From: Centruroides vittatus
Lineage: Eukaryota
Assembly (NCBI RefSeq): GCF_030686945.1
Contig: NW_027122708.1
Span: forward strand, 5,930,248 to 5,994,247
Reading direction: 5' to 3'
Length of the DNA: 64,000 nucleotides
This document shows positions 1-57,719 of this stretch, in pieces (within the stretch, counting starts at the first letter, position 1; every line of letters begins with the position of its first letter). The notes under the pieces are model-generated. The model had not been told where the DNA came from and did not search any database. It saw only the letters and a program-made list of their open reading frames with translations. A program made the translations under genes and the position numbers.

Positions 1-89
1 CAGTTGCTAGTACTGCCATCTTGCGGTAAAGTCTGCAAACCATGACGTCGGACTACGGTCATCTCCAGTAGGGTTAAACACGCGATACG

Positions 90-402
90 AGAGCGGAGAG
101 AGCGACGCGACTTCCAATCATCGCGCGATCGCCATTTCGGTTAATGTTACTTATGGCAGCGAACATGGCGGCCGTTCCCACTGTTCGTGCTCCCGACTGA
201 CCTCCCGGAGGGGAGCCGCCGGCAGGCCGCCATGTGCTAAACGTCACTAGTTATTGATTCACGGTAGTTCTTGAACAAAGTAAAAAAAGGGGGAAATGTC
301 TACTAAATGCAATTTTAACGGCAAGCGACGCGACTTCCGATCACGATAGCGAGGCCGACTTAGCGGAGAGAGCGACGCGCCTCCCTATCATCGCGCGATC
401 GC
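90..402. repeat. GC-rich island with two direct copies of the motif ggagagagcgacgcg...cttcc(a/g)atca...atcatcgcgcgatcgc (about 95-135 and 322-402), standing out from an AT-rich background
   Basis: Direct reading of the sequence. The repeated atcatcgcgcgatcgc core occurs twice and local GC is high. Confidence 0.5.
139..245. mobile_element. Truncated copy of the palindromic TTAGG-containing MITE family. It keeps the left terminus ggttaatgttac...atggcggc and an inner right-arm piece gccgccat.
   Basis: Terminus matches the copies at 3756-4002 and 10479-10712. The right terminus is missing. Confidence 0.35.
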
Positions 403-2817
403 TGGAAAAAAGTATGATAACTTTTTTATTTTTCGACTCCGGTCCAAAAGTAGGGTATCGTTTAACTCGTCTCCGTCCCCTCAGTTCAGAAATATACTCA
501 AAGTCCCAAAATTCCATAGGTGGTAATCTATAGTATCCCCAATCATTTGTGTCCAGCTAAATTAAAGCGGTGTTATTAGCAGCCACCACAGCCAACATAA
601 TGCATTGCTGACTACCGTGCGAATCAAGTGGGAAAACGACAGATGACATAGGACAGACGAATAAAGTCGATCTATATTTACCCGACCTCAGCCAAAACAG
701 GCCTGAAAACGCAATAATTACTCGGCGTAGTTTCTCTATAAAGATGCAAATTAATTCATATTATAGTAATGTGTGTCCACTTTTCACTTTTACAATTAAA
801 TTTTGAATATTTATTGTACCGGTACAATTGAACTTTATTACACACTCACTAGAAAAAATAAAGATCATCAAACCTCCATACAAAACATTAATTATTTGAA
901 ATAAAATGAATAAATAAATAGTAGGCTGGATAATAATGATTACGAACTATATTTTATAAATACGTCAATAAAAATGAAGTTTTTCACGTAAAAAATATTT
1001 ACTACACCAATGGAAACTGGCGACGTATTCCACAAAAGAAATATCTTTATGGATATCTTTCCACCGATATTACCCCAAATCAAATGCACAGGGTAAATAC
1101 AATTGCACACGAGATACGTTCATAAAGTCGAAAGAATTAAAGGAGCTGTTCATAAATTACGTCCGCATTTTTCTTGAAATTTTACTCTCCCTTCCCCTCT
1201 TATGCCAGTTTGTCCGAGTTTCTGTAACCCTCCCTCTTCGGATGTCCGACAAAACTCGAACCCCCTTTAAACCTTTATCACTTTATAAATGACGATATTA
1301 TAAGTAGAAACAAAACGTAAAAAGAAATTCTGAAATAAATATAAAATGCATGAACTGTATAAAATTTAATGAAATAAACGGACGTCCACTGAAGATCGAT
1401 CCCTCTTCTCCCCTTGTCCGACTTTGTCTGACCTGTCCTAATCCCCAGTGTGGACGTCATGGACAGACCCAAAGGAATTACTGGCGAGTCGGCCATAAAG
1501 TACTAATTCTACTCGGCGCCCGCACAAAATGTTGATGACGTTTCAAACGAAATTCACGAAAGAAAAGAGGAAAGAGTTACTTTACATCGCAAAAAAAAAA
1601 AATTGTTTCTAAATTTATCCACGTGTATTAAAAAATGAAATGATAGAAATAAATGCCTACGGTAAGCAATGAAAGAAAAATATTTCGGATGAGAATGCAC
1701 CAGCCACATTTTAAGATGTTGATGCAATTTTACACTAACTTTCTTTAAAATAATATCCCCGAAGAGAACAGGCTGTTTCCTAGAAATAGTACAAGCCCAG
1801 GTAGTGTTGCCACCTTTACAAAATCGCTGACCCGGACGGTAGGTCAGGTTTGTTCAAACAGAAGTTCCTGATGCATGCGCAATGTCATTTTACAGTGCGA
1901 AGAATAACGTGCATGCCGGTTCTAAATCAGTTACAGTTAGGGACTAGGGACTTGCGTAGGAGTAACGTATGTAACCTAAATTAAGAAAGAAAGAACAGAT
2001 AATTTAGCTCCGCAGAAGACGTGTACGGACATACAAGCAAGAAATTATAAAAGAAAAAAAAAAGGTCGAGAGACAGGTTGCGAGTCACACGTCCGCGTAA
2101 ACAGAGTAACATGGCGGAATGGCAGATGAGTTTCAGTGAGTGTGAAGTCTTTCGCTGTTCAAATAGTGTAAATTTATAAAAAATATTTGCAAGAACTTTG
2201 TTTCATCGTAATTTCACAATTTCTACGAAATTCCCGGACAAAATTAATAGTTCACCCGGACAGTGAGTCAATTCCCGGACTGTCGTGTGAAAATCGTACG
2301 GGTGGTAACACTAAGCCCAGGACAACCCATGGGGAAGGAAGAGCAAGCTCTATCATTTCACCTCGTTCCAAAAAGAGGTTAATATCAAAACTTTCAATGG
2401 AAGCGAATCAGATATTAAGCTGATTAGAACAGACACTTTATTTGACAAAGTTTATAGGATTGTTACAAGGCGCCTGACTTTTGAATCAACCCGACAATTG
2501 GAAATCACTTTTCATCGATCATAGCCATAAAGAAGGAAGCAACGTCGATCACTTCCAAAATTTTCGGAACTCACTCCAACGAACTTATTATCACTGGTGT
2601 CGTCCGGTAATAATTTAAAAAAAGAAATTTATTGATTTTATGGAGTGTAATTTTCTATCACCAATGCATCATGATTATAAATTTCGTCAATTTATTTAAA
2701 AAAGTTATTTATGCCCTTATACATAATACTTGTTTTACTAAAAGTATAATGAAACGATGCCGTTTGATTTTCGATAACACTATGCGTCGCGTTTGTATAC
2801 AAGGTCTATAATACAAG

Positions 2818-3027
2818 AGCGAGGTTGACGCCGAAGTTTTAAACGCGTAAACGTGTACGTCGGACGTTCAGCGCCGCTTTCATGTAAATCTAGAAATTTG
2901 ACAATGGCGTTTGGAATGTCGAGCAGGATTCCACTGACTTTACAAACACCATTGTCAAATTTCTAGACTTACATGAAAGCGGCGCTGAACGTCCGACGTA
3001 CACGTTTACGCGTTTAAAACTTCGGCC
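2818..3027. repeat. Foldback/palindromic element with about 95-bp near-perfect inverted arms and a spacer of about 33 bp
   Basis: Left arm gcgaggttgacgccgaagttttaaacgcgtaaacgtgtacgtcggacg... is the reverse complement of the right arm ...cgtccgacgtacacgtttacgcgtttaaaacttcggcctcaacctcgc. Confidence 0.7.
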
Positions 3028-3382
3028 TCAACCTCGCCAAGGTCTGGACACGATACCGCGATGCGTAACATAGTTCCAAATAATTTTGTTTTAAAGATCA
3101 AAAATAAAGGAAAAAAATACTGTATAAATATAAATTTTATTTACTGAAAAACTAAATTTTCTTTAGTATGACGACTTCGGACACTGTGAAACACAAATTA
3201 AATCAAATATTTTCTCGACGATGAGAATTACATTTTTTGTGCTATATTATTATTTTTTTAGTCGTAAACCGTAATTAAATAATAAAATACAATTATCTCA
3301 GGAATAATATATTTATTATTTTTCTAAAAACAACAGAGCAGCCATCATTTTTGATCCTCCAGACGACGAAAACGTCAAAATA

Positions 3383-3420: not shown

Positions 3421-3755
3421 GACAAAACGAGAAAAGAAAACTCATCACAGATTGTTATTTAATATTATACAAAAGATTATTTTTAAAAATAGCTTTTTTA
3501 TATGCTTTACTATTAAATAATCGGCTAAAATGGTTTGTGATTTTACATTTTGATAAAATAACGTCTTTGGCCACCAGGAGTCCAGCGACCAACGCGCGGT
3601 AAAAGAAAACATTCAACGTTTCAAAAATATTTTGAAAGTGTTCGAAACTTTTCTGGATATTTACAGGTATTGATTTTTAATTAATAAGCCAATAAATTAA
3701 CATCGCTTTAAAATATAGAAATAATTCGAAATCTCTAATCAAAATTACAAAAAAC

Positions 3756-4002
3756 GGTTAATGTTACCCTAGGTATCGAAGATAGCGGCTCGTCTCCGAT
3801 TCCATCAATCAGAAGATGGAAGAATGGGGACGCACGTTCTAACCTAACCTAACCTATTCTAATAAATTACCATAATTATTAGCAACAAAATTATTAGAAT
3901 AGGATAGGTTAGATTAGAACGTTCGTCCCCATTCTTCCCTGTCTTCTGATTGATGGAATCGGAGACGAGCCGCCATCTTCGATACCTAGGGTAACATTAA
4001 CC
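3756..4002. mobile_element. Palindromic MITE, family A copy 1. Termini ggttaatgttaccctagg / cctagggtaacattaacc. Arms of about 100 bp carry ggctcgtctc and ggggacgc motifs plus (CCTAA)3, which is (TTAGG)3 on the other strand.
   Basis: The inverted arms are reverse complements of each other. The central loop attctaataaattaccataattatt is shared with the copy at 10479-10712. Confidence 0.75.
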
Positions 4003-4268
4003 CAAAAACATATAATCATTTGCTTTTTGTCCAATATTTTAATAAATCTTCTGAACAGCCATTTGTAATTTGCTATAAATTTTAAGCTTAAATTCTGCCC
4101 CAATTTGCATTTGACATTAAATTTTAATTCACGATCTGTATCCTTCTTGTTAATATAAAATGGAAGTCAATGTAAAGCCCGTAGGATAACGCGCCACTGT
4201 TTAGTCCCATCCTCTAGATTCTATTTGAAGTCTTATTTATGGATTGGACGATTATGCTTGTTTTTTGG

Positions 4269-4909: not shown

Positions 4910-6073
4910 ACTTCAAAGCAGCAAAACCATTGGACGCTAAATATGATTTTGGTTAATTTAAATGCTTTTTACCTAAACCAGAAGATTTCACTTTGCTAAT
5001 TGTACAAAAAGAATTCGATATTGGAAAAGAATTTACTGTTTGTGCTAAAGGCGAAAAACATTAGTGTCCTCTGACATTTCGGCTTTTCGGATTAATGACA
5101 GACGAAAGTGGAATACGAAAGGTGGCTGAAATTGTTGATAAACAAGATGGTTCCTATATTTTCAACTTCCGCTTGGATAAATATTGCAAAATACTTCATA
5201 GAAATAACGCTCTTTGGTCGTCATATCAAAAATAGTCCTGTTGCTATAGGTATAAAAACAGACGAAAATAAGTTAACTAAAGACCGGCACTTATAGTATC
5301 TCGATGCTTTTGATCGCCGTTTAGATGTTTATCATCTCGAGACGGATAAATAAGTTTTAATTTTATAATTTCAGATATGCATCATTATATAGTTGAAACT
5401 TTTTAAAAAATATATTCTCTTGGTTAAAATGTTTAAATGAATAATTACAATTTTTGAATGTATTCCTTACTTAATCTTTGTATAAATTATTATTAATAAT
5501 GTTTAGTTTACGAAGTAGCATATAGTGATATTTCATGAAAGGTTTATTAGTGTTTATCATTTTATTAATAACATGTTACTTAGCAAATGTATCATAAAAA
5601 ATATCGTTTTAAAACTGTTAAATCGATATAAATTTTGTTCAGATTTGTTGATTAAAAGAAAATATTAATTCAACTTTATTCTCCACTTTTTCTATTTCAC
5701 TAATTTGAAGCTTTAATTCATTACATTTATAAACTTTAAATACAGTATTATAAGTTACGTCAGTCAATAATTTATAAATATAATTAGTACTATTAAACAT
5801 CTTTAACAATTTTTACATATTATAAACTAATTTATTTAAAAATTTCTAATTCTTGATTAAAAATTGTTATTTAAAAACTAAAAATATACAAATTTCAAAC
5901 ACGAAATCTGGCTAAATTCATATTTATTTTCTTTTTATAATGCAAAATTGTATTTTCATTTCGGTTTAGTTTGCTGTAATTTATTCGAAATAATATTTTG
6001 TTACCTTATTCTAGTTTTAGTTTATATGGCCGAATTATTTTTTGATGTTTTGTAAATTTCTTCTTATTAACTT

Positions 6074-6171
6074 GAATTGGAGCTCGGCCTGTCGAATTTC
6101 CTTTTATTTTGATTGGTCAAGTTCTTTCTGTTCTCTACTTTATGTTTTTTATTTTATTTTACTTTAAATAG
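6074..6171 (+). pseudogene. cytb: cytb C-terminal fragment (WIGARPVEFPFILIGQVLSVLYFMFFILFYFK-stop under the mitochondrial code), truncated upstream by an in-frame TAA at 6068
   Basis: The translation matches the conserved cytochrome b C-terminus WIGARPVE.P.I.IGQ. Upstream of 6068 there is no cytb-like sequence. Confidence 0.6.
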
Positions 6172-6234
6172 TTATTTAGCTAATATAAGCTTTTGTTTTG
6201 AAAGCAAAGAATAGGAAGTATCTTAATAACTTTT
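6170..6234 (+). tRNA. trnS2: Mitochondrial-type tRNA-Ser(UCN). It has a 7-bp acceptor stem agttatt/aataact and a TGA anticodon in ttttgaaag.
   Basis: Cloverleaf elements located by eye. The position between cytb and nad1 matches arthropod mitochondrial gene order. Confidence 0.5.
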
Positions 6235-7183
6235 CTTAAAAGAGTACTTAATAAAGAATAAGTGAATAATAAAAATAGTCTTTACAGACAAAACAATTAG
6301 CACATAATTTAAGGCTAGAGGAAGGTAGCTTTTTCAGGCTAGATTTATTAACTTATCATATCGAAAACGAGGATATCTCCCACGAACTCATAAGAAAAGA
6401 ATAGAAAATATTAATACTTTTAAGGAGATAAAAAGAGGACCAAAGAATAAAATTGCTGTTATTATTCTTATCAAGATAATATTTGCGTATTCAGCTATGA
6501 AAATAAGAGCAAAACCTACCCCTATATATTCAACGTTAAACCCAGAAACTAGTTCGGACTCTCCTTCTGTAAAATCAAAAGGAGTTCGGTTAGTTTCTGC
6601 TAAACAAGAAGAAAATCAAACTATTAATAGGGGGAGTATAAAAATTCCAATTGAACTTAATAATTGATAGTTATTAATTTCTTTTAAATTAAAAGAAGAA
6701 GTAATTATAAGAAGAGAAAATAAAATTAAAGCAAAGCTCACTTCATAAGAAATAGTTTGAGCTACTCCTCGATAAGCCCCTAAAATGGCGTATTTAGAAT
6801 TGGAGGACCATCCAGCCACTAAAATCGAGTAGACTCTTACTCTTGAACAAGATAAAAAAAAAATAAAACCCCCCATTTTATATCAATAAAATAATATAGA
6901 GAGGGGTATAACATCCATAAAATCAAAGCTATAGAAAGACCAAAAATAGGAGAAAACAAAAAAGGATAAAGATTATATGTTTCCAATCTTGATAGCTCCT
7001 TAATAAATAATTTAATAGCATCCGAAAAGGGCTGAAATAATCCTAAAATCCCTACTTTATTAGGGCCTTTACGAATTTGAATATAACCTAACATTTTACG
7101 TTCTAACAAAGTAATAAATGCAACTCTTACTAAAATTATAATTAAAATTAATAAATAAGATAAAAATCAAAAAAAAAATTATC
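6223..7183 (-). pseudogene. nad1: NADH dehydrogenase subunit 1 (nad1), mitochondria-derived, with a frameshift in a T10/A10 homopolymer at 6863-6872
   Basis: Six-frame ORFs 6837-7109 ([31 protein letters not shown]) and 6616-6876 ([32 protein letters not shown]) are ND1 segments in different frames. TGA is used as Trp. The stop TAA is at 6223. Confidence 0.8.
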
Positions 7184-7186
7184 AAA

Positions 7187-7256
7187 GAGAGATTCTATTT
7201 ATGGAGCTTAAATCCATCGCATATATTTTGCTACATTGAATAAAACCTTTTCTCTC
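7187..7256 (-). tRNA. trnL: Mitochondrial-type tRNA-Leu. The anticodon hairpin atgga-tttaagc-tccat reads TAA. Its 5' and 3' ends are uncertain.
   Basis: It lies between nad1 and rrnL as in arthropod mitochondrial genomes. The cloverleaf was only partly resolvable by eye. Confidence 0.35.
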
Positions 7257-8372
7257 ATTAGAACTTTTCTAAACGAAGGGTCCTTTCGTACTACTTCGTT
7301 TCAATTTTTCTCTAGATAGAAACCAACCTGGCTTACACCGGTTTGAACTCAGATCATGGAAACTTTTATAAGTCGAACAGACTTCCTATTATTGCTCTTG
7401 AGCAATAGAGGTAATTTAATCCAACATCGAGGTCACAAACATGTTTGTCAATTTGAGCTTTCAAAACATATTACGCTGTTATCCCTAAAGTAACTTATTT
7501 AAATTTCAAAAATTTTGGGTATTAAAATAATACTATCTTTAATTATCTAAAAGTGTTTTTCTTTCTGCCGCCCCAGCAAAACATATTCTTAATTTACTAA
7601 ATTTTCTTATGTAAAGTTTTATAGGGTGTTCTTGTCTAAAAGAGACATTTTAGCCTTCTTACTAAAAAGTGAAGTTTAAAATCAATAGTTAAGAAAGAAA
7701 TTTTCTAGTTTACCCTTTCATTCCAGTCTTAAATTACAAGACTAATTATTATGCTACCTTTGCACAGTCAAAATACCGCGGCCATTTATTTATACATCGA
7801 GCAGGGCTCATTTTTAATCATTTCAAAAAAATATGTTTTTGGTAAACAGACCAAAAATTTTAGACGAGTTACTTAACTTTTAATTGCTTTCTTAATTATA
7901 GATTAATTTTCTACTTATTTTAACATTATTACTATCATTAAATTATTCCATGGAAACTTTAATTAATTATTAGTTTATAAAACTAAAAATAACTTAATGA
8001 TAAAATTGAAGACAATCTTATTCCTCTAATAACAAATAATTATTTTTTAAACTTACATCTAATAAAGCTTGTCCTTTATTAGATAAAAATTTTCCAATCT
8101 TTGATGCTTATCTTAAAGAACCAGATATCAAATTAGGCGTTTAGCTTTTTACTTCAATAAATCAATTTACAATTACTTTAACACGTAAAAAATATTAATT
8201 TATAGCTCATAACTTTTCGGGAAAATTAAATCCTTTAATTAATTATTAAACCCTGATACAAAAGGTACGATATTCTCCTTTTTATATATTAAAAATACCC
8301 TTACAGTTAAGTTTTCTTCAATTTCAAACTATTACTAAAAAATGACTCCCTTCTTAATAATTTTCTAAAATA
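7257..8372 (-). rRNA. rrnL: Mitochondrial large-subunit (16S) rRNA, NUMT copy
   Basis: The 3'-domain motifs ccggtttgaactcagatcatg (7336-7356) and acgctgttatccctaaagtaa (7468-7488) are present as reverse complement. The 12S 3' end at 8441 fixes the upper bound. At about 1.1 kb it is shorter than a typical insect 16S. Confidence 0.75.
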
Positions 8373-8440
8373 AAATAAACAAGATTCCAAAAAGGATCTT
8401 TTTAATGTAAATAAAAAACTTAACTAAAGCTTAATCTTGC
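8373..8440 (-). tRNA. trnV: Mitochondrial-type tRNA-Val, approximate, with the anticodon in tttacat
   Basis: It lies between rrnL and rrnS. The reverse complement contains caagattaagctttagttaagtttt...tttacatt. Confidence 0.35.
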
Positions 8441-9245
8441 TTCCAGGAACATCTTCCGATATTCCTACTATGTTACGACTTTTCTCTTATTAAAAGAGAG
8501 TGACGGGCGATATGTACATATTTTAGAGCTAGTTCAATTTAACAAATTATTACAAAAATACTTTCAAATCCTCTTTCATTTACCTTTTAATAATAAAATC
8601 CATAAATATATTTTTATATTGTAACCCATCTATACTTAAACATAAGCTGAACCTTGATCTGATATTAAAAATAAAATTACATTTAATAATAACTATAAAG
8701 TATTATTACCACAACGATATACAAACCACCAATCTAAGTAAGATATGTCGTGTATTATCGATTATAAGACAGGTTCCTCTAATAAGATTAAAACACCGCC
8801 AAAATTTTTAAGTTTTAAGCCATCTAATACTACCTGAATTTTATATTTTTTTATAACAGGGTATCTAATCCTGGTTTCTCATAAAATTTTCAAAGACCCC
8901 TAAAAAAGAAGTTTTAAATATAAAAATTCTACCTTTAACTCTTCAATCCTTCTTAAAAATATTCTTCCCCCCAAAAACTTAGCCCTACTTGATTTTATAG
9001 TATAACCGCAGCCGCTGGCACTATTTTTGCTAAATCTAAAAGAATAACTAAAACTTTTTAATAAGAAATTAATATTAAAACCTAAAAATTTCTATTTAAA
9101 ATACTAATATAAATTTATTTTCTTAAAGAAGGACTTTTAGCCAAAATTAAACCAGGACTAATAAAATGTAGAGTATATTATCTTTACTTCTCTTCTTAAA
9201 TCTTCAATAAAAAAAACGCGCCACAATGAACTTGAAAACAAAATT
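8441..9245 (-). rRNA. rrnS: Mitochondrial small-subunit (12S) rRNA, NUMT copy
   Basis: The 3' end gtgacgggcgatatgtacat / aagtcgtaacatagtaggaatatcggaag is present as reverse complement at 8443-8510. The internal motifs gggtatctaatcc (8860) and accgcagccgctggcac (9005) are also present. Confidence 0.75.
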
Positions 9246-9542: not shown

Positions 9543-10036
9543 ACAGTAATCCTGCAACAAAAGCATGTATTTGAAGTTACAGCATATGAAATGGATTCTA
9601 CCAAACCACCTCTACGTGTTCAGGTTAATTTCACCCATGTCATGTGATTAAACCGCGAGCGCTGCTTTTTTTTTTCCGGAGATAGTTACCTTTATTCTGC
9701 GACGTAATAAAAGTGGAGTTTCAAGAACAACCTCCAACATTAAATTTTGTCAGCGTTTAGGTAAAACACCTACGGAGACTTTAAAATTGCTAAGAAAGGT
9801 GTACGGTGATTCTACCATGGCGAAGTCGAAATGTTGGAGGTTGTTCTTGAAACTCCACTTTTATTACGTCGCAGAACAAAGGTAACTATCTCCGGGGGAA
9901 AAAAACAGCAGCGCTCGCGGTTTAATCACATGACATGGGTGAAATTAACCTGAACACGTAGAGGTGGTTTGGTAGAATCCATTTCATACGCTGTAACTTC
10001 AAATACATGCTTTTGTTGTCATGGATTACTGCAGTC
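9543..10036. mobile_element. Palindromic rearranged mariner derivative. Inverted arms of about 200 bp flank an 80-bp core that encodes a mariner transposase helix-turn-helix piece (RLGKTPTETLKLLRKVYGDSTMAKSKCW).
   Basis: The arms at 9543-9745 and 9825-10036 are reverse complements. The core translation matches the mariner N-terminal LGKNT...YGDS...KS region. Confidence 0.6.
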
Positions 10037-10478
10037 CCCGAACTTTTGGATCGTATCACGTATAAGTTTCTTGGTTGCATAAAGAATATCGGGCGACTCT
10101 CAAAAGTTTCCTGCACGTCGGTGATCTAAGTTTGATTTAAATTTAAAATTTATTATAATAATTGTCACAAAGAAAATACGAATGAGTAGTTTTAGTGTGA
10201 TGGAAGAATATATTCTTGTCTATTTTAAAGTCAAATGTTTCTTAAAATTTATCAAAAAAATACGAGAAAATTCAGTAGATGAATATACAATTCGTAAAAA
10301 TTATTGATAAACTTTATGTATTGTAAGAATATAACTCAGTTATATCGAGTATTTTCAGTAAAGGGTCGTCAGATTTTATAAAAATTGTATACGTAGATAA
10401 AAAAAATTAATACAGAATTCTTATAATTTTTATTTATTCATCTAAAATTATCAATTGAATTTCGTTGTTTCAATTTAA

Positions 10479-10712
10479 GGTTAATGTTACCTATGGTGTC
10501 AAAATGGTGGCTCGTCTGTGATTCAAGGAAACAGAAGGAAAAAAAAAACAGTGGGGACGCCCTAACCTATTCTAATAAATTACCATAATTATTACCAACC
10601 AAATTATTAGAATAGGTTAGGTTAGGTTAGAACGTGCGTCCCCACTGTTTTCTTTCTTGTTTCCTTGAATCAGAGACGAGCCGCCATTTTGACACCATAG
10701 TTAACATTAACC
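10479..10712. mobile_element. Palindromic MITE, family A copy 2, carrying (TTAGG)3
   Basis: The termini, loop and arm motifs match the copy at 3756-4002. ataggttaggttaggttagaacg is visible. Confidence 0.75.
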
Positions 10713-11568
10713 CAATTTAAAATGATTCACAAGCAATACTATTAAACGAAACTCATAATGCCTGCTCTCAAACAAAATTATTTTGCGATATTTATAAAAA
10801 ATTAATTGAAAATTTGAAAATTAAACTTTTGTTCAATATAAAATTTGTCTTTATTTAGAGCGAAAATTAAGTGTTAAATCGAATGCAGTTAATGGAAAAG
10901 TATTCAACCTTGTACTGTACATGGTCATTGCCATCGTAGAAACGAAAAAATTTAAATGCTGTCCAGCAAATTTACATTCTGGATAGCTATATAATAAAAT
11001 AATTATAAAAACAATTCCATTTTATAATAGACCTAATACAAAATTTATATCAGTTTCACACAAAAGAAGTGTCGATTTTGCGAGATAAAATTGCTTCCTT
11101 ATATTGAAGCAATTTTATCTTACTAGGCTGATCTTTCTAATTATTTAACGTCAGGCAACGTAATGTTTTCAATGTTTCGGATAGTTATATTTAACAATAA
11201 GAATGCATTACTCTATTATGCTCAACATTAGAGTTTTAAATCACTGTTTCTGAATAATTCCACATAGGCCAATTCTTAAAGCAGACAGATTTATAGAAAC
11301 AAATGGAATAAGGTTTACAGAAAAGTGAAGTTTCTGTAAAAAAAATGATGTCATTGCAATATTTCTTTGGCATATGTAGAGATTAGATCATATGTTTTTT
11401 AAAATTTATGGCCTGTGTCACAAAAGTTTCTTTTTTTTACTTTCCCGGCTACTATAACAGAGGAAAAGTATGGCGATCGGTAAAAAAATGACCACCCAAG
11501 GTTTTTTGGATCAGGAGACTTGAAAGAAAAAAAATAGAATAGTTAAGATTTTGTGAAATTACTTAATA

Positions 11569-33532: not shown

Positions 33533-36500
33533 TTAGTTTGTTTTGTTTTTATAAATGTCGATTATTTTACAAAAATAGTTATAAATTTTATATAAGTCTT
33601 TTTTACCCATTTTGTTGAAGTTTTTTAACAATTCTATTAGCGAATTGCATTTATAAGTTCGAGTTATGTCATAGTGTTCACGAATATCATTTAATTTTGG
33701 ACATTTTAATATTAAATGATAAGGTGTTGAATCATCGGAGTTACATAAGAAACATTTTGTTGATAAGCTTATGTAAGTGTTGTTAACATACAGCGAATTT
33801 TTATTTAAACGAAGTTGTGCTATAAAGCGTTTTACATTCAAGTTTACCGAATACAACATATATGATTGAACTGATGGTATTTTAAATATATCTAAGTACC
33901 ACGGATGATATTTACTGCTATGTAATGAGAACTGATCTTTGTTTATGGATTGTGCCATAGCTGAGTTTAAAAGTAGTGAGTAGCCTGTTTTCCAATCTTG
34001 AATGTTATCTTGAAATAGTAGTTCTGATACTCCAAAAGAGTTGAAGATAGTTTTTAATTTGTTATGCCATAGCTGTTTATTTTTTTGAAGTTTACTTTGC
34101 TTGATGTTTTCATGATATAGAGCAATCAAATTGTTGTCACTATTGAATTTGAGTCTGTAATAAAATTTAATGATTCGTTTTAATATGAACGGGAAAGACC
34201 ATATACGATTGGTTTCATGACGTAGTGCATATCCGGGTATTGTCCGTTCTAACTGAAATAATCTGCGTAGATAGTAAATATGGAATCGTTCTAATTTGTA
34301 GAGATAATCCAAGCTCCAAATGGGACTGGCGTAGAATATCATTGGATTAATAATCGAATTGTAAAGTTTCATGTGTATTCTTAAGTCAGAAGTTTTCAAT
34401 CTGCTGCATAAAAACAAAAGATTATCGATTGCTTGATTGACTTTATTGTTAAGTTTAGAAATGTGCGATTTAAATGTTAAGTTCCAGTCAAAATTAATTC
34501 CTAGGTAATTTATCTCATTGACAGTTTGTAGCAGGATATTTTCATGATAAATTTTTGTTTCGTTAACAGATATTTTACTGTTGTTCCGAAAAATAATTAT
34601 TTTAGTTTTACTTGGATTAACTGCTAAATATTTAGACTTAAAATGCGAATTTAATTGATTGATTTTCCTTTGGAGAGAAATTTTTGTCGGTGCTACCACA
34701 ACCAAGTCATCAGCAAAGAGAATATAATGAAATGCTTTATTGCCTATGAGTATACCATCGTTTACTTCAGAAAAAAGATGATCTATATCTTTCAAATAAA
34801 AGTTAAATAAATGTGGAGATAATGGATCTCCTTGAAGAATACCACGTGAATGCGTTAATGGTGGAAGAATGTTTTTACCGTGCTTGATCTTTATTTTATA
34901 ATTTTGAAATAATATTGATATTGTTCCTGTAAATTGAGAACTAGCACCACTCTCCTTAAGTTTTTGTTGTAAAAAAGGTACATATACTGAATCGAATGCC
35001 TTTTTAATATCTATAAAAGCAGCATACACTTTTCTATGTTTTTTTACGAGATATATTTGAATAATCATTAGCAAAGTAAATATCGCAAATTCGGTGCCTT
35101 TATTTTTTGTATAAGCAAACTGAAATTCTGCTTCTAACTCGTTGATTTTGATCCAATTTTGAAATTTTTTTGCAAGTATCGATGTAAAACATTTTCTAAG
35201 TGTAGATAACAAAGCTATAGGTCTATAGTTTTCTGGAGCCATCTGGTCTCCCTTTTTATAGATCATCGTCATGATTATGGAATTCCAAGATTCAGGATAG
35301 GACAATGTGCTGTACATAGCATTGAATATTTTCAATAATTTTATTTTAGATTCCGTTGGTAGCATTTTTAAGAATTTGGTTGGTATGTTATCATCCCCTG
35401 GGGTAGTATTGTTTTTTGTTTTTTGAATTACTTCGTCGAGTTCATTCATAGTCAAGTCAGCGTTTAAATAATCATCATAATAATTAATATTTCTTTCCAT
35501 TGGAACTTTTAAATTTTTTATAATGAAGCTTTGATAAAATTTCTTCCAAGTTTCGAATCTTATACAAATGTTAATATCTCCTAGATTAGCTTTTGGTCGA
35601 AATTTTCGGATAGTATTCCAAAATATTTTGCTATTATTACTATTATTTATTAAATTTGATTCAATTCTACAAAAGTAGTTTTTCTTTTTCGTCTTAATTA
35701 AGTTATTGTAGATTCGTTTGGAGTTTTTGTAATTAATCAAATTTTCTTTATTAGGATTTTGCCTGTAAATTTTTAAATCTTGTTGCTTTCGCCGTTTTTC
35801 TTTGTAACAATCTGAATCATACCAGATTTTTTTATTTTTATTTTGCGCGTATTTGTTATCCTTGTTTGATATTATATAATCATTCATGATATTCATCATT
35901 ATTTTGTATACCTCTTCACAGTTATTATTAGTTACTTCTAGCATATTTTTAAACCGATTTCCAATTTCGGACTCATAACTAGCCAATTTGTACTTTATCT
36001 TGAAGTTGTTGTTATATATATAATCCGAATTCTCAAAAGGAAATAAACGGAATTTTGCTATTGTAGGAAAATGATCTGAAATATCAAAATTCGTAGTCTG
36101 AAATTCTACACAACAATCTAAGAATAATTCAGAGCATATTGTGAAATCTATGGTCGAAGCACCCGTATTGGTCAAGCAAGTATGTTCAGCTGGAATATCC
36201 TGTTGAATTCTGCCGTTAAGAAGAAACAATCTGTGTTCTGTTAGCAACTCGATAAAGTTTTTACCCAATCTGTTGGTTTGTTTATCTTTCGAAAGACGTT
36301 TATTAGATATATTGAAATTGGCACCTTTATATTTTGAATCTATTAACTCACCAATCCTTGCATTAAAATCTCCCACTACCAAAATGAGCGGAGAAATATG
36401 ACTCCAACTTTCTAATGTTTTAAACATATTTTTTAAAGTACTTAGATCATCAGGCAGAATATAAGCAATTAATAATGTTATTAAATTATTCGTTTTATTT

Positions 36501-36814
36501 ACCAAAGTAGGCTTCTGTAATGAGATAAGAAGTAGCATATAATTGTTGAATTTTTTTATGTCAATTATTTTACCAAGGTTCTTTTTTATAAGGATACATA
36601 TACCTCCACTTGGACGGCCTGGACCTGTAGGTTTTTGTGCTTGAATCGATTCCACTATAAAGTTATTAAAAAATTTTGTTTTATAATACAAATTCGAAGT
36701 AATCCAAGTTTCAGTAATTGCTAAAATATCCGGATCGTATTTAACACAAAAATTATTTATTAGTGACGTTTTATTTTTTATTCCTTGGCCATTCCAGTTA
36801 GCAATGGAAACCAT
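33533..36814 (-). CDS. LINE ORF2 polyprotein of 1093 aa. N-terminal apurinic/apyrimidinic endonuclease (DILAITETW), reverse transcriptase (FADDLVVVA box) and C-terminal Cys motif CFLCNSDDSTPYHLILKC.
   Basis: Uninterrupted ORF starting with ATG. The domain order and motifs are those of LINE ORF2. Confidence 0.85.
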   Translation of the reverse strand: MVSIANWNGQGIKNKTSLINNFCVKYDPDILAITETWITSNLYYKTKFFNNFIVESIQAQKPTGPGRPSGGICILIKKNLGKIIDIKKFNNYMLLLISLQKPTLVNKTNNLITLLIAYILPDDLSTLKNMFKTLESWSHISPLILVVGDFNARIGELIDSKYKGANFNISNKRLSKDKQTNRLGKNFIELLTEHRLFLLNGRIQQDIPAEHTCLTNTGASTIDFTICSELFLDCCVEFQTTNFDISDHFPTIAKFRLFPFENSDYIYNNNFKIKYKLASYESEIGNRFKNMLEVTNNNCEEVYKIMMNIMNDYIISNKDNKYAQNKNKKIWYDSDCYKEKRRKQQDLKIYRQNPNKENLINYKNSKRIYNNLIKTKKKNYFCRIESNLINNSNNSKIFWNTIRKFRPKANLGDINICIRFETWKKFYQSFIIKNLKVPMERNINYYDDYLNADLTMNELDEVIQKTKNNTTPGDDNIPTKFLKMLPTESKIKLLKIFNAMYSTLSYPESWNSIIMTMIYKKGDQMAPENYRPIALLSTLRKCFTSILAKKFQNWIKINELEAEFQFAYTKNKGTEFAIFTLLMIIQIYLVKKHRKVYAAFIDIKKAFDSVYVPFLQQKLKESGASSQFTGTISILFQNYKIKIKHGKNILPPLTHSRGILQGDPLSPHLFNFYLKDIDHLFSEVNDGILIGNKAFHYILFADDLVVVAPTKISLQRKINQLNSHFKSKYLAVNPSKTKIIIFRNNSKISVNETKIYHENILLQTVNEINYLGINFDWNLTFKSHISKLNNKVNQAIDNLLFLCSRLKTSDLRIHMKLYNSIINPMIFYASPIWSLDYLYKLERFHIYYLRRLFQLERTIPGYALRHETNRIWSFPFILKRIIKFYYRLKFNSDNNLIALYHENIKQSKLQKNKQLWHNKLKTIFNSFGVSELLFQDNIQDWKTGYSLLLNSAMAQSINKDQFSLHSSKYHPWYLDIFKIPSVQSYMLYSVNLNVKRFIAQLRLNKNSLYVNNTYISLSTKCFLCNSDDSTPYHLILKCPKLNDIREHYDITRTYKCNSLIELLKNFNKMGKKDLYKIYNYFCKIIDIYKNKTN

Positions 36815-36868
36815 TTGATTATTCTTTATGACTTTGTTATGTTGCGTATATTTTTGCTTAACATGATA

Positions 36869-37843
36869 TCAACTGTCTGTATTTATTTGATTACTATAAG
36901 GACGAAAATTATTTACATAAACCAATTTGCTCAATTTTAGGCTATATGTTATTTTTTCTTGGTTAATCGTTAATATATCATTACGGAGTTTAACTTGGTC
37001 TTTTTGTTTTCGTAATTCATGAAGTATTGGGAGTAAATTTTTCTTTCTTATCCTTGAGTTTTTAGTCAAATCTGGGGATATTTGCATATCTTCCCATTCT
37101 TCTAATGCGTTTTTTTGTTGTTTCTTTTGAATAAAGGTATAGAAAAATTTATCACGAAGTTGCTTATTGCTGAATGTTATTCTTACTGTTGTATTAGGTT
37201 TCTTAGTTATTAAGTTTGTTTCTGTTATCTCAGTTTGGGCTATATCGTGAATGTTTAGTACATTAGTCATAAAGTTATATACTTCTAACGTAGATATGGA
37301 TTTCGAGCTTGGATATTTGTATACAATTATTTTTTTATAATTATAATCATTAATTAAAGAGTCTATTTTAAATTGCGTTAGTTCATTTTCACTTTTTTGA
37401 TTTTCTAGTTGTTGTTTTATATTTTTAATTTCTTCCTCCATATATATCTGTCTTTCCTTAGTCTCACGTATATCTTGACGTATTCGTTCTACGTCTTCTT
37501 TTATATAGACCATTTGTTCTAACAGTTTATCATTTGAAGCATTTATTAAATCTGATATTTTAGTCCATAGAAGTGCAGTTGTAGTGTCAAGTTGACTTGC
37601 TGGATTAGTAAGAAGGCTTGAATTAATATTAGGTGACTCACCTGTTGAGCCTAATGAATTCTGCTGACCAGGTTCCATATTTTGATTCGAGAATTCTTTT
37701 GTTCCTTCTTGTGAATCACTTTTCGGTTGTGTTCCGTAATCCGTAATGAGTTTGGAGCTTGAAGTGCTTGGTTGAGCTTGTTTGTTCTCTGTCCTCGTTC
37801 TGGTCAGTGGAGGTCTTCCACGCTTGACTGGAGATCTTTGCAT
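36869..37843 (-). CDS. LINE ORF1 protein of about 324 aa from the first ATG. Basic N-terminus, long coiled-coil (IKEDVERIRQDIRETKERQIYMEEEIKNIKQQLENQKSE) and a C-terminal putative RNA-binding region. There are no CCHC zinc knuckles, so it is of the L1-like type.
   Basis: The six-frame ORF 36869-37885 uses a non-ATG start. The first ATG is at 37841-37843. Confidence 0.7.
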   Translation of the reverse strand: MQRSPVKRGRPPLTRTRTENKQAQPSTSSSKLITDYGTQPKSDSQEGTKEFSNQNMEPGQQNSLGSTGESPNINSSLLTNPASQLDTTTALLWTKISDLINASNDKLLEQMVYIKEDVERIRQDIRETKERQIYMEEEIKNIKQQLENQKSENELTQFKIDSLINDYNYKKIIVYKYPSSKSISTLEVYNFMTNVLNIHDIAQTEITETNLITKKPNTTVRITFSNKQLRDKFFYTFIQKKQQKNALEEWEDMQISPDLTKNSRIRKKNLLPILHELRKQKDQVKLRNDILTINQEKITYSLKLSKLVYVNNFRPYSNQINTDS

Positions 37844-38524
37844 ATTATTATTTTTTTGTATTATTGCTTTTTCCTTTACCTTCACTTAGTTAGTGTTAGT
37901 TTAAACTTGTTTAATAATAAGTTAATCAAATAAACAGTAATTCACCACTTCGCTGCACAAATGAAAGGTTCACAGAAAAAGTCACTCGCAGCGCCCGACA
38001 AACTATATTTTTATATATAGATATATGGATAAAATATATTTTCTTTCTCAAAAAAATATTTTATTTAAATGTTAAATTACATATTGTGTTGATTTAACTT
38101 TTTCACTTTCTTTATAAATATATAGTAAAGGAATTTTATATTTAAAGTAACTTTTAAAAAAAAGACACAAATATAAGAAATGCTAAAAATTTAATCATGT
38201 TTTTTGGAATAAATATAATTTATTTAACTAATGCTATTGTTGAATTTATGAAAGAAAGTAAATGAGAACTGTTAAGCTGATGACTCCACAGTTTATTTTA
38301 ACAGATATTTTATTTTTAAATCTATCCATTGAGATTTAAGAGATAAGTTATTTAAGATTTGTATAAATATCATATAGATATTAATACCCTTTGTTAAAAT
38401 TAATTTATTCCATTTACATTCTTTATCCCTTCTGCAATTATTTTAGTTTTGATATCTCAAAAAATTATACATTTAACATATTTATGTAGTAATTTCTCTA
38501 AAATATTAAAATAATAATAAATGA

Positions 38525-39455: not shown

Positions 39456-39700
39456 TTGTATTAACACAATTAAAAACTTCAGATAAGGAGGCGTTAAAGT
39501 AATTAAAAAAAATATTTTATTTGTGCAAGAGCAAGTGCAAGTAATTTACACACATCGTCCGCAGGCAGTTTGACTAAGAAGACGCCTGAGGATGACGTGC
39601 GTAAATTATGTCAAAAGCACTTGCACAAATAAAATATTTCTTTTAATTATTTTAACGCCTCCTTATCTGAAGTTTTTAATTTTGTTAAAAATACAATGTT
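39456..39700. mobile_element. Foldback MITE with about 85-bp inverted arms and a roughly 70-bp core that is itself partly palindromic
   Basis: acaattaaaaacttcagataaggaggcgttaaagtaattaaaa... is the reverse complement of ...ttttaattattttaacgcctccttatctgaagtttttaattttgtt. Confidence 0.7.
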
Positions 39701-42262: not shown

Positions 42263-42812
42263 TTATCTTTTCTTCTTATTTACTTCTATACTTAACTTTA
42301 ATAACAAGCAGTACATGTTTACATCTTTAATTTCCACCGTACAACCTTGAACAGCATGATTATTGTTATCTTCACAATGATATTGAATAATTCCACCAAG
42401 ATAATCCTGCCAAGTTGTGGAATCAACACTAGCGACCAAAGGGCCATGAAATGCCATTAATTTTAGCATTTCTTCTTCTGATCCTTTTAAATCTTCACAG
42501 GTATAATTAAATTTTAATTCTATTCCTTTTTTTGGTCTTATGGCTTTACAGTTTGTCTCTTTGTCAGTTAAAGGATATTGTTTTTCAGTTAAAATTTTCA
42601 CTTTATTCTCATACATCCAGTCTAAGACCTCAAAAGTATCTCCACCATCATAACCACAGTTTGTTCCAGTTGCACAATCTATTACTTGCTGCACATTCAA
42701 TTCTACAAGTTCACCTGTCTTTAAAGCATTCATACTTTCTAATGTTTCTACAGTACTAAACGTCCAACATGCACCACATTCCTTCTGACTTTTCACTGGA
42801 GTAACAATTCCA
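42263..42812 (-). pseudogene. Papain-family (C1A, cathepsin-L-like) cysteine-protease fragment. It covers the mature-domain N-terminal roughly 170 aa (PGIVTPVKSQKECGACWTFS...DCATGTNCGYDGG...NHAV) with no propeptide and no intron, and is frameshifted at its 3' end.
   Basis: The conserved Q19 and C25 region QKECGACWTFS, the GCxGG-like block and the His region are recognisable. The copia RT fragment abuts it in-frame upstream. Confidence 0.6.
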
Positions 42813-43443
42813 GGTTTCCTCCTGGCTTTATATATTCATTTTCACTCTTCTTTCTGTATATCCACTTCACATCAATTACCCTTTTGTCTTTGGGAGGCTT
42901 GCTTACAAGTGTCCATGTATTGCTTATCACAAGACTCTCCATCTCAGAATTCATTGCTGCTTTCCATTTCTTTGAATCATCAAATGTCATTGCCTCCTGA
43001 AAATTTTCTGGAACCGTAGCATCACAGTAATTTACACTTATACAGTAATAACCAAATTCTTCATCAAAATGGAGTGGATGTTTAATTAGTCTTCCTGATC
43101 TTTTTCCTTTCTTCTTTTCTTCATCATCTTTTATCTCATCATTACTATTTTCTTCATGTGTTTTGTCCTTTTCCAAGTCTTTTGTCATATCTTTTTCTTT
43201 CTGATTTGTATTAGTGGAATCTTCTTCTTCGTTCTCCTTTGTTTGGTCTGAATCCTTTTGTCTTTCTTCCTTATCTTCATTCTTTTCCTCTTCCTCATTT
43301 TTGAATCCACACAAAGTTACATCTTCTTCTATTATGTCACAGTGTCTAGCCATTATAACTCTGCTATTCACCAATACTCTATATCTGGTGTCTGTATATC
43401 CAAGTAAAATTCCAACTTCCATTTTCTTGTCCCACTTCCATTT

Positions 43444-44136: not shown

Positions 44137-44542
44137 GTTGTTAAAATTGATATGTCCAGTTGTTTTCTACGTAGTTTTTCTTTTATAGTCATATTGCTTT
44201 TACTCATGTTTGCTTGTGATTTTTTTTCATTGATATAACTTTTCATTTTATATAGTTTATCCTCTTTATTGCAACAGCTATCAGCCTTCCATATGGGTTG
44301 TATATTTTGGAGAATTTCCCTCTTGAAACAACTGAATGTTTGTCTGTGATTTTTGAATAACTTAACAAATTTGCTTTCATATCTTTTACAAAAAAAAAAA
44401 AAAAAACATTTTCCAATGTCACCTCAGAATTTTGTCCACAAACTGGGAAACAAGTTTTAATATTACCAACTTTTGTAGCTTCTAATATTCTTCCATCATC
44501 AATTTTTACAATATAATAAGAAATGCTTACTGGAACAAAAAA

Positions 44543-44687
44543 ATCAGAAATTAAATCTATTACACGCCTTTAAAGTATCCAGCATACTGTTAAATTTTCA
44601 TAAGAACGTTTTCGATCACTTTTAGAGATCTTAAATTTAACAGTATGCTGGATACTTTAAAGGCGTGTAATAGATTTAATTTCTGAT
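44543..44687. mobile_element. Hairpin MITE of about 145 bp inserted in the copia gag-integrase region, with 55-bp inverted arms
   Basis: atcagaaattaaatctattacacgcctttaaagtatccagcatactgttaaattt ... is the reverse complement of the right arm. Confidence 0.65.
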
Positions 44688-44977
44688 TTTTAATCAATTT
44701 TTACTTTTACTGATTCCTTCAATGTCTCACAGGTTTCAAAATACTCATCAGTGTTAATAATATGGTCTGTGTAACCACTACCAAGTAACCATTCTATTTC
44801 ATCTTTCCCTGGCTTTTTGTTTTTACTTGTTTTATAAGTATTGTTTGCAATGGTAACCTGAAAACTATTTCCTTGATATTCATGTATGCATTGATGATAA
44901 TTTCCTTATCCTCTCTGAAAGTTTCTGGCATTGAACAATCCATGTCCTCGATAAACAGAAAAACCACGACCTCCACC

Positions 44978-45782: not shown

Positions 45783-46715
45783 TTTTTTTTTCTCTTCCAT
45801 CTCCCTTACATAATTAACATCACCTTTAATCCAACTCGACAATAGTGTTTTCGCTTTTTATTAATTTAATTAAATTTTTGTTTTGTCCCATTCCAGAACC
45901 TCACATATATGAATCGTCTTATCTTCAAGTAAAAACTTATGCTTAACTTTAATCACATGATTCATTGTCTTGATCTTGCTCTAACTTTTATTAATTTTGT
46001 TTTTTACTGATACTAAAAAAAAGCAATAAGTTACAATTTATCACTTACAATACATGTCTCCAATACATATATTTCTTTCTATAAAACAAACCTTTTGAGT
46101 AAAGTTTTCTTCTGTAAGAAGATATTTTCAGTATTTGGATCTTATATTGTAACCAGGCATTGCCAATGGCATGTACAGGTATACCTCGCCTTACATTGGT
46201 AATTGGTTCCAAGAGAGGCGACGTAAGTCGAAAAACAATATAAGTTGAATTTACTTGTGTAGTTACGATGTAAGTCGAAAGTACGGGAAAACACCAATAA
46301 CAAGCACTTAAAGACGCTAAATAAGATGACAACACAGAAACACAGATGTTTTCATGTTTCGTTCTCTAGGATTTATGATGATTATATTAACATTTATTGT
46401 AAATGTAAATATTTTAATATGATTTTATGTGCTTTTAATGCTTTTCTGGTGATATTACAACTTCAATATTTGTGGCGAGCAGATGTAAAGTCGAATAAAA
46501 TGACTTAAACTTGATTTTTATTTTTCCATATACTTTTTTGACAAACGACGTATAATTGGGAACAACGTAACTCAAAACAACATAACTTGAGGTATACCTG
46601 TATATATATTTTTTAGTTAGTACATAAGTTGCACATATTTGGAGGTGCCTTCAAATCAGTTGCACAGAAAAGGGCAGGAAATTGGCTGGGGATTGTTACG
46701 CAGCCTCTTGGCATG

Positions 46716-57609: not shown

Positions 57610-57719
57610 TAAACCACACGTACAGAAACCACTTACTGGTGTTGGAAACGAAAAACAAAAAAACCGTTTTTTCGTTTTCGTTTCCAACACTGGTAAGTGG
57701 TTCCTGTACGTGTGGTTTA
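57610..57719. repeat. Near-perfect 110-bp palindrome with about 45-bp arms and a self-complementary loop aaaaaaccgtttttt
   Basis: taaaccacacgtacagaaaccacttactggtgttggaaacgaaaa is the reverse complement of the right arm. The mirrored ORFs on the two strands are an artefact of it. Confidence 0.8.

What the first reader, a model, noticed from the sequence alone, without database searches (positions are those of the whole stretch)
3756..4002. Palindromic MITE family carrying canonical (TTAGG)3 telomeric units, in at least 2.5 copies in 64 kb
The copies at 3756-4002 and 10479-10712 share termini ggttaatgttacc, arm motifs ggctcgtct(c/g) and ggggacgc, and an identical 25-nt central loop. Each contains a run of three perfect TTAGG/CCTAA units near the centre. 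A truncated copy sits at 139-245. Interstitial arthropod telomere repeats borne on a mobile hairpin element could seed interstitial telomeric sites. The whole element is a near-perfect hairpin, so it could also be a source of small RNAs or a fragile site.
Basis: seen in the sequence. Interest (0 to 1): 0.6.

Follow-up and report, generated by a model that had tools for sequence, protein, structure and literature searches.

The report
Scorpion hairpin transposon carrying telomere-like repeats
Two independent insertions of a small, non-coding, hairpin-shaped DNA transposon (a MITE) in a bark-scorpion genome each carry a short run of the arthropod telomere motif; the insertions are real, but this is an ordinary kind of mobile element with a curious internal microsatellite, not a new kind of system.

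Summary
Window 3756-4002 (247 bp) and 10479-10712 (234 bp) are two copies, 75% identical, of one palindromic element. Each folds as single-stranded DNA into a near-perfect hairpin (-116 and -91 kcal/mol; z -30 and -20).

The flanks are unrelated. Copy 2 has a perfect 8-bp target-site duplication (CAATTTAA), and copy 1 has the same kind with one A lost. These are therefore separate insertions, not a segmental duplication.

Each copy keeps one perfect 18-nt telomere-type run: CTAACCTAACCTAACCTA at 3839-3856 and its complement at 10613-10630. In the partner arm the run is mutated (copy 1) or partly deleted (copy 2). Both arms of the ancestor therefore carried it, C-strand on the left and G-strand on the right.

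- The loop is 19 nt and differs at 2 positions between the copies.
- The "truncated copy" is only a 35-nt terminus-like match at 139-173.

A mitochondrial insert in the window places it in Centruroides (ND1 96% identical to C. vittatus), a TTAGG-telomere lineage.

Termini 5'-GG...CC-3', long inverted repeats and 8-bp duplications fit a Merlin-like MITE best. No transposase partner was found, and genome-wide copy number could not be tested. The roles proposed for the repeat (telomere seeding, small RNAs, fragile sites) remain speculation.

The parts
3748..3755 (.). Left target-site duplication of copy 1 (CAAAAAAC)
   Evidence: Read directly. It matches the right flank CAAAAAC(A) except for one A lost in the homopolymer.
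3756..4002 (+). MITE copy 1, 247 bp. Left arm 3756-3868, 19-nt loop 3869-3887, right arm 3888-4002.
   Evidence: Arms 93% identical. ssDNA hairpin -116.3 kcal/mol, z -30. Stops in all six frames.
3839..3856 (-). Perfect 18-nt telomere-type run in the left arm of copy 1 (CTAACCTAACCTAACCTA on the + strand, so the G-strand TTAGG reads on the - strand)
3900..3917 (+). Degenerate partner run in the right arm of copy 1 (TAGGATAGGTTAGATTAG, 16 of 18)
4003..4010 (.). Right target-site duplication of copy 1 (CAAAAACA; 7-nt CAAAAAC plus the next base)
10471..10478 (.). Left target-site duplication of copy 2 (CAATTTAA)
   Evidence: Identical 8-mer on the other side; chance of an 8/8 match about 5e-5.
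10479..10712 (+). MITE copy 2, 234 bp. Left arm 10479-10581, 19-nt loop 10582-10600, right arm 10601-10712.
   Evidence: 75% identical to copy 1. ssDNA hairpin -90.9 kcal/mol, z -20.
10561..10569 (-). Remnant of the telomere-type run in the left arm of copy 2 (CCTAACCTA), left after a 14-nt deletion
10613..10630 (+). Perfect 18-nt telomere-type run in the right arm of copy 2 (TAGGTTAGGTTAGGTTAG)
10713..10720 (.). Right target-site duplication of copy 2 (CAATTTAA)
139..173 (+). Terminus-like fragment (GGTTAATGTTACtTATGG..ACATGGCGGCC). It has the same two conserved blocks at the same spacing as the MITE ends, with no recognisable core or right end.
   Evidence: nhmmer E about 1e-3. Neighbouring 229-288 belongs to another repeat family also seen in L001.

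Best explanation
These are two old, independent insertions of a non-autonomous cut-and-paste DNA transposon (a palindromic MITE) in the nuclear genome of a Centruroides bark scorpion.

How it moves: the element has no coding capacity, so a transposase encoded elsewhere must move it in trans. That enzyme makes 8-bp staggered cuts at the target, which explains the 8-bp duplications. The combination of 5'-GG...CC-3' ends, very long inverted repeats (arms of about 113 nt) and 8-bp duplications fits the Merlin superfamily best. This assignment is inferred from structure only.

The telomere-type run: each arm of the ancestral element carried an 18-nt run (CTAAC x3.6) about 83 nt in from the end, so the element reads 5'-(CCTAA)n..loop..(TTAGG)n-3'. 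The run is most simply an internal pentanucleotide microsatellite of the founder element. It was mirrored when the palindrome formed and has been inherited passively since. Both present copies show it decaying in one arm.

Arm co-evolution: the two arms of each copy have evolved together, most likely by repair or conversion between the arms when the palindrome folds back on itself.

Shown: the anatomy, the duplications, the independence of the insertions, the arm co-variation and the host genus.
Inferred: the transposase type, the origin of the run and the homogenisation mechanism.
For: - Exact ends and palindromy.
- Hairpin stability.
- Target-site duplications: perfect 8/8 CAATTTAA around copy 2 (p about 5e-5) and CAAAAAAC/CAAAAAC around copy 1. 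Flanks are otherwise unrelated.
- No open frame longer than about 31 codons starts inside the element.
- The copies are 75% identical, with 12-15 positions changed on both arms together and 97.9% of cells still paired. The two copies therefore descend from different source copies of one palindromic ancestor that shared the same loop and the same stem asymmetry. This implies further family members existed.
- Merlin signature from the literature: conserved terminal 5'-GG, inverted repeats of 24-462 bp, 8-9 bp duplications (PMC8101967).
- The window is dense with other palindromic or terminal-inverted-repeat elements and with transposon remains: mariner, LINE, copia.
- Host: the mitochondrial insert's ND1 is 96% identical to C. 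vittatus, and the cathepsin O-like fragment is 93% identical to the Centruroides cathepsin O-like cluster representative (C. vittatus), whose cluster also holds the C. sculpturatus protein.
- TTAGG marks chromosome ends in the buthid scorpion Tityus obscurus (PMC5392961).
- The telomere-type runs occur only inside the two copies.
Against: - Only two full copies were seen.
- No transposase of Merlin, hAT or P type lies in the window (Pfam scan of the stop-free stretches of 75 residues or more, apart from the known LINE and a few overlapping or mitochondrial-insert ones).
- No copy lies in the 42.7 kb of C. sculpturatus DNA that could be fetched.
- No hits in the viral, metagenome or prokaryote-genome collections. 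These are weak negatives, because scorpion genomes do not appear to be held there.
- The inner core, including the telomere-type run, has 0 of 38-43 positions changed on both arms, against 12-15 of 62-68 in the outer arms (Fisher p about 0.0003-0.001). A purely passive microsatellite does not predict this. It hints at some constraint on the core.
Confidence: 0.8

Rival explanations
1. It is the same kind of element (a MITE with 8-bp duplications), but it is mobilised by a hAT, P, Mutator-like or other transposase rather than a Merlin-type one.
For: By my own knowledge, 8-bp duplications are also typical of hAT and P elements. No transposase partner was found, so the assignment rests on end structure alone.
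Against: The ends are 5'-GG...CC-3' with arms over 100 nt, as described for Merlin. From memory and not tested here, hAT ends are short and begin YARNG, and P ends begin CANRG. GGTTA fits neither.
Confidence: 0.3
2. The conserved inner core, including the outward-facing telomere-type runs, is a functional module. It could be needed for the element's own propagation as an internal binding site. Alternatively it could be bound by host telomere-repeat proteins, or be usable as a seed for new telomeres after breakage of the holocentric chromosomes.
For: The core shows no subfamily-level change while the outer arms show 12-15 paired changes. The polarity, C-strand left and G-strand right, is that of a real chromosome and of ciliate telomere-bearing transposons. 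Buthid karyotypes fragment and fuse readily, and telomere reconstitution after fission has been proposed for them.
Against: Both copies have already lost the perfect run in one arm, which argues against strong selection on it in situ. The run is only 18 nt. Only two copies were compared. No binding or healing data exist.
Confidence: 0.12
3. The loci are hairpin-RNA or microRNA-like genes, with the stem kept by selection on RNA pairing rather than by transposon biology.
For: Near-perfect hairpins with compensatory-looking double changes. Sub-threshold matches to many miRNA precursor models.
Against: The Rfam matches are to many unrelated families, on both strands, and all far below gathering scores (26-62 bits against 55-99). 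That is what any long perfect hairpin gives. Target-site duplications and defined GG/CC ends point to transposition. With two sequences, co-variation cannot separate selection from arm-to-arm conversion (caveat).
Confidence: 0.04
4. The telomere-type runs are ordinary interstitial telomeric sequences, either relics of chromosome fusion or telomerase-mediated break repair. Alternatively the two loci are a segmental duplication.
For: None beyond the presence of the motif.
Against: The runs sit at the same internal position of a repeated element, mirrored in both arms. The element's flanks are unrelated and each has its own duplication. A head-to-head fusion would read (TTAGG)n(CCTAA)n, the opposite of what is seen.
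Confidence: 0.01

Closest known systems
Palindromic MITEs (non-autonomous terminal-inverted-repeat DNA transposons), many of which carry internal tandem repeats
   Same: Small size, no coding capacity, defined inverted ends, target-site duplications, strong hairpin potential, A/T-rich host context, and an internal short tandem repeat. That tandem repeats can be integral parts of transposons and MITE-like elements is stated in PMC5615363.
   Different: The whole element is one hairpin with arms of about 113 nt and a 19-nt loop. The internal repeat happens to be the host lineage's telomere motif.
Merlin superfamily (IS1016/IS1595-related) and its non-autonomous derivatives
   Same: Conserved terminal 5'-GG, long inverted repeats within the 24-462 bp range, and 8-bp target-site duplications (PMC8101967).
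   Different: No DDE_Tnp_IS1595 transposase or any autonomous partner was found. The assignment rests on structure only.
Telomere-bearing elements (TBE, Tc1/mariner) of Oxytricha. From memory, also the Tel-1 elements of Tetrahymena.
   Same: These are inverted-repeat transposons whose two arms carry the host telomere repeat in mirror orientation, C-strand at the left and G-strand at the right (PMC4724952).
   Different: In TBEs the repeat forms the extreme ends of a 4-kb autonomous Tc1/mariner element with ANT duplications. Here it lies about 83 nt inside the ends of a 0.25-kb non-coding element with 8-bp duplications. The element ends are GGTTAATG, not telomeric.
Short interstitial telomeric sequences
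   Same: A few exact telomere units at a non-terminal site.
   Different: The run was not created locally by fusion or telomerase repair. It arrived as part of a mobile element.

Membership tests
MITE | Short (under about 800 bp) and without coding capacity | tested here: met
   247 and 234 bp. Stops in all six frames; the longest frame from an end is about 31 codons.
MITE | Terminal inverted repeats | tested here: met
   Arms of 103-115 nt, 93% (copy 1) and 76% (copy 2) identical. 97.9% of cells paired.
MITE | Target-site duplication of fixed length flanking independent insertions | tested here: met
   CAATTTAA/CAATTTAA, and CAAAAAAC/CAAAAAC with a 1-nt slip. Flanks otherwise unrelated.
MITE | Many dispersed copies in the genome | not testable with these tools
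   Two copies plus one terminus-like fragment in 64 kb. None in 42.7 kb of C. sculpturatus. No scorpion assembly was searchable. Paired subfamily differences imply further source copies.
Merlin superfamily | 8- or 9-bp target-site duplication | tested here: met
   8 bp. Criterion from PMC8101967.
Merlin superfamily | Conserved terminal 5'-GG and inverted repeats of 24-462 bp | tested here: met
   GGTTAATG...CATTAACC; arms about 113 nt.
Merlin superfamily | Autonomous partner encoding a DDE_Tnp_IS1595 transposase with the same ends | tested here: inconclusive
   None among the stop-free stretches of 75 residues or more that were scanned (the known LINE and a few overlapping or mitochondrial-insert ones were left out). 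The rest of the genome could not be searched.
hAT superfamily | 8-bp duplication together with short ends beginning YARNG (criterion from memory) | tested here: not met
   The duplication length fits, but the ends begin GGTTA and the inverted repeats are over 100 nt.
piggyBac/Kolobok-type (TTAA target) | Element flanked directly by TTAA | tested here: not met
   A TTAA lies at bases 3-6 of each end. However, the outer GG/CC are conserved at all ends, and the 8-bp direct repeats lie outside them.
Telomere-bearing transposons (TBE-like) | Telomere repeat forms the extreme end of each inverted repeat | tested here: not met
   The run starts about 83 nt inside the end. Criterion from PMC4724952.
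Known RNA families (Rfam 15) | Score at or above a family's gathering threshold | tested here: not met
   No gathering-level hit on the elements. Only generic sub-threshold miRNA-hairpin hits on both strands.

The most novel reading that the evidence does not exclude
The element is a vehicle that scatters outward-facing telomere seeds, 5'-(CCTAA)n..(TTAGG)n-3', through a holocentric scorpion genome. A break next to a copy would leave a fragment with a correctly oriented TTAGG primer for telomerase. This would help the frequent fissions of buthid karyotypes to be healed. Conservation of the inner core would reflect that use, or the binding of telomere-repeat proteins.
Probability: 0.04. Interest if true: 0.65.

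Novelty: new member of a known kind. Interest (0 to 1): 0.25.

Why it matters
The practical value is as an apparently undescribed repeat family for annotating Centruroides genomes. It is also a clean example of two-arm co-evolution in a fully palindromic transposon. The telomere-type run would matter only if genome-wide data showed it is preserved against decay, or that copies mark chromosome breakpoints or new ends in these holocentric, rearrangement-prone scorpions. In that case mobile elements would be a source of dispersed telomere seeds. Nothing here shows that.

Tried and rejected
1. Exact-pattern scans with the terminus pattern (GGTTAATGTTAMYYWWGG..ATRGYGGC) and the core pattern (GGGGACGMACGTTCTAAYCTAACCTAWCC) in the metagenome and prokaryote-genome collections, and with a shorter terminus pattern (GGTTAATGTTACCYWWGGTRTC) in the viral collection, gave 0 hits. 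This is uninformative, because scorpion genomes do not appear to be held there.

2. Fetching more host DNA through proteins:
   - The LINE ORF2 has no close relative in the protein database (best 35%).
   - C. vittatus proteins are not on record for DNA look-up.
   - Nine window ORFs are not in the collection.
   - Only one C. sculpturatus locus (L001, 42.7 kb) was obtained, and it holds no copy. Its one CCTAACCTAA, at 24312, is unrelated.

3. A literature string search for the terminus found only irrelevant primers. Searches for MITEs carrying telomere repeats found no direct precedent.

4. I tried using the mitochondrial insert as a natural empty-site reference. Neither copy lies inside it.

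5. The TTAA-target (piggyBac-like) reading of GG|TTAA|TG... is rejected. GG/CC are conserved and the 8-bp repeats lie outside them.

6. I tested for a smaller palindrome inserted into the centre of an older one. There is no direct repeat at the core boundary (left ...GCACGTTC, right GAACGTGC...).

7. The pair GGTTAATTTCACC at 9623/9950 is not a family member. It lies inside a larger 464-nt palindrome with a mariner HTH_48 remnant.

8. The Rfam E-value scan gave only generic hairpin matches.

Full report
**What is in the sequence**

Window 3756-4002 (247 bp) and 10479-10712 (234 bp) are two copies of one element.
- Both begin GGTTAATGTTACC. Copy 1 ends with its exact reverse complement, and copy 2 with one mismatch.
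- That 13-mer has 9 matches with up to 2 mismatches in the window, against 1.9 expected.
- A profile built from the two copies finds only these two loci, on both strands because they are palindromes, plus a weak 35-nt match at 139-173.
- Each copy is one long hairpin. Copy 1 has arms of 113 and 115 nt around a 19-nt loop; copy 2 has arms of 103 and 112 nt.
- Folded as single-stranded DNA they reach -116.3 and -90.9 kcal/mol. The z-scores are -30 and -20, and no shuffle does as well.

**Host and setting**

The window is A/T-rich (about 30% GC) and full of transposon remains:
- a mariner transposase fragment;
- a LINE with both reading frames open;
- a copia-like element;
- at least fifteen other palindromic or inverted-repeat elements.

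At about 5980-8700 lies a mitochondrial DNA insert carrying the cytb end, ND1, 16S and the 12S end. Its ND1 is 96% identical to Centruroides vittatus, 88% to C. hentzi and 87% to C. limpidus. A cathepsin O-like fragment at 42266-42835 is 93% identical to the C. vittatus protein that represents a 90%-identity cluster also holding the C. sculpturatus protein.

The window has no Ns, and its composition matches the 30.85% GC reported for the PacBio C. vittatus assembly (PMC11304958). The DNA is therefore nuclear DNA of a Centruroides bark scorpion (Buthidae). In the buthid Tityus obscurus, a TTAGG probe labels all chromosome ends and only the ends, on holocentric and highly rearranged chromosomes (PMC5392961). 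That Centruroides itself uses TTAGG is an inference from this.

**Independent insertions**

The 8 bases on each side of copy 2 are CAATTTAA and CAATTTAA. The chance of an 8/8 match at this composition is about 5e-5. Copy 1 is flanked by CAAAAAAC and CAAAAAC, one A short in a homopolymer. Beyond these repeats the flanks of the two copies are unrelated.

This is the signature of two separate transposition events by an enzyme that cuts the target with an 8-bp stagger. It excludes a segmental duplication. Neither copy has an open frame of any length. No Merlin, hAT or P transposase is encoded among the stop-free stretches of 75 residues or more that were scanned; the LINE and a few overlapping or mitochondrial-insert ORFs were left out. 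The element must therefore be moved in trans.

**The two arms evolve together, and the core is the most conserved part**

The copies are only 75% identical to each other, yet each remains a good palindrome.

In a four-arm alignment:
- 72 columns are invariant;
- 26 differ in a single arm;
- 15 differ between the copies but agree between the two arms of each copy.

On the two-copy alignment, 97.9% of cells are paired. Twelve pairs are changed on both sides, and no shuffle or slid control comes near that. The loop orientation and a shared stem asymmetry next to the loop (AAATT against AATTT) show that both copies descend from one palindromic ancestor.

All paired changes lie in the outer helix (12 of 68 pairs). 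None lie in the inner helix (0 of 38 pairs), which runs from TGGGGACG through the telomere-type run to the loop. The Fisher p is about 0.0003-0.001.

I read the paired changes as arm-to-arm correction when the palindrome folds on itself. With two sequences this cannot be told apart from selection on pairing. The paired changes also mean that neither copy is the parent of the other, so further source copies must have existed.

**The telomere-type run**

Copy 1 has CTAACCTAACCTAACCTA at 3839-3856 in its left arm. Copy 2 has the exact complement at 10613-10630 in its right arm. Each run is 18 nt, or 3.6 units. The partner arm carries two substitutions in copy 1. In copy 2 it has a 14-nt deletion that removes most of the run. 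The ancestor therefore had the run in both arms and read 5'-(CCTAA)n..loop..(TTAGG)n-3'.

No other place in the 64 kb has even two perfect TTAGG units. Only four other perfect pentanucleotide runs of three or more units exist, all A/T-rich.

The association with the element is real, but it traces to a single ancestral event that was copied by the palindrome and by transposition. Among the many repeat families of a genome, one whose internal pentanucleotide microsatellite equals the telomere unit is not remarkable. The polarity is that of a miniature chromosome, with G-strands pointing outward. It is not that of a head-to-head fusion.

**The third 'copy'**

Window 139-173 (GGTTAATGTTACTTATGGCAGCGAACATGGCGGCC) shares the terminal block and the ATGGCGGC block at the same spacing as the four arms. 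Nothing further matches. Window 229-288 and 414-535 are 87-93% identical to another repeat found inside the ribosomal protein S3 gene region of C. sculpturatus (L001 7394-7686). By eye that similarity begins at about 228. This is a related terminus or a fragment, not a 107-nt truncated copy.

**Search for copies elsewhere**

- Pattern scans of the viral, metagenome and prokaryote-genome collections gave nothing.
- Only one scorpion locus could be fetched: L001, 42.7 kb of C. sculpturatus scaffold KZ494388.1. It has no copy.
- C. vittatus DNA was not retrievable.

Genome-wide copy number therefore remains untested.

**What it is like, and whether it belongs**

The element meets every testable MITE criterion except copy number.

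Superfamily candidates:
- Merlin. These elements are described as having a conserved terminal 5'-GG, inverted repeats of 24-462 bp and 8-9 bp duplications (PMC8101967). All three are met here. The defining transposase was not found, so membership is open.
- hAT and P. They share the duplication length but, from memory, not the ends.
- TTAA-target (piggyBac-like). This reading is excluded.

Rfam gives only generic sub-threshold hairpin matches.

The nearest documented case of a transposon bearing its host's telomere repeat in mirror orientation is the Oxytricha TBE family. There the repeat forms the very ends of an autonomous Tc1/mariner element (PMC4724952), which is not the arrangement here. 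I found no paper describing a MITE with TTAGG units and no description of repeat families in the C. vittatus genome paper.

**Verdict**

This is a real but ordinary feature: an apparently undescribed palindromic MITE family of a scorpion, probably Merlin-like, with a decaying internal TTAGG microsatellite. The unexpectedly conserved core is the only point that a passive reading does not predict. It keeps a small probability open for a functional role of the core or the run. Seeding of telomeric sites, small-RNA production and fragility are untested.

Noticed in passing
window 5980-8700 (possibly to about 9250): Large nuclear insert of mitochondrial DNA in the ancestral arthropod gene order: cytb C-terminus (+), ND1 with a frameshift (-), 16S (-), 3' end of 12S (-). 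ND1 is 96% identical to C. vittatus, so the insert is fairly young. Rfam reports it as bacterial LSU rRNA.
   Followed up: partly
window 2284-2461 (-): U2 spliceosomal snRNA gene (63 bits, above the gathering score), about 1.3 kb from MITE copy 1.
   Followed up: no
window 33533-37885 (-): LINE with both reading frames open: ORF1 of 338 aa and ORF2 of 1093 aa with endonuclease and reverse-transcriptase domains. Its best database relative is only 29-35% identical, so it may be a recently active, poorly sampled lineage.
   Followed up: partly
window 9555-10018: A 464-nt near-perfect palindrome whose centre still encodes part of a mariner HTH_48 domain, i.e. a mariner-derived foldback MITE. It contains GGTTAATTTCACC at 9623 and 9950, which resembles the MITE terminus but is internal.
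   Followed up: partly
window 42266-42835 (-): Intron-less cathepsin O-like fragment (Peptidase_C1), 93% identical to the Centruroides gene, which spans 22.7 kb with introns in L001. It abuts a copia-like element and is likely a processed or partial pseudogene. C. vittatus also has a separate 179-aa partial copy annotated.
   Followed up: partly
window 1-535; L001 7394-8051: GC-rich mosaic repeat with a 41-nt direct repeat (92-132 and 362-402) and segments 85-93% identical to an inverted-repeat element inside the C. sculpturatus ribosomal protein S3 gene region. The terminus-like MITE fragment sits inside it.
   Followed up: partly
all four arms (e.g. window 3970-3980, 10680-10691) and 164-173, 226-236: The block ATGGCGGC / GCCGCCAT(C/T)TT is conserved at the same distance from every end. 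It resembles the YY1/Pho core motif (recollection, not tested) and may be a transposase-binding or host-factor site.
   Followed up: no
window-wide, e.g. 2819-3037, 39461-39688, 44539-44691, 46713-47286, 57610-57719, 63190-63319: At least fifteen further palindromic or inverted-repeat elements of 80-980 bp. This stretch of the genome is unusually rich in foldback or MITE-like DNA.
   Followed up: no
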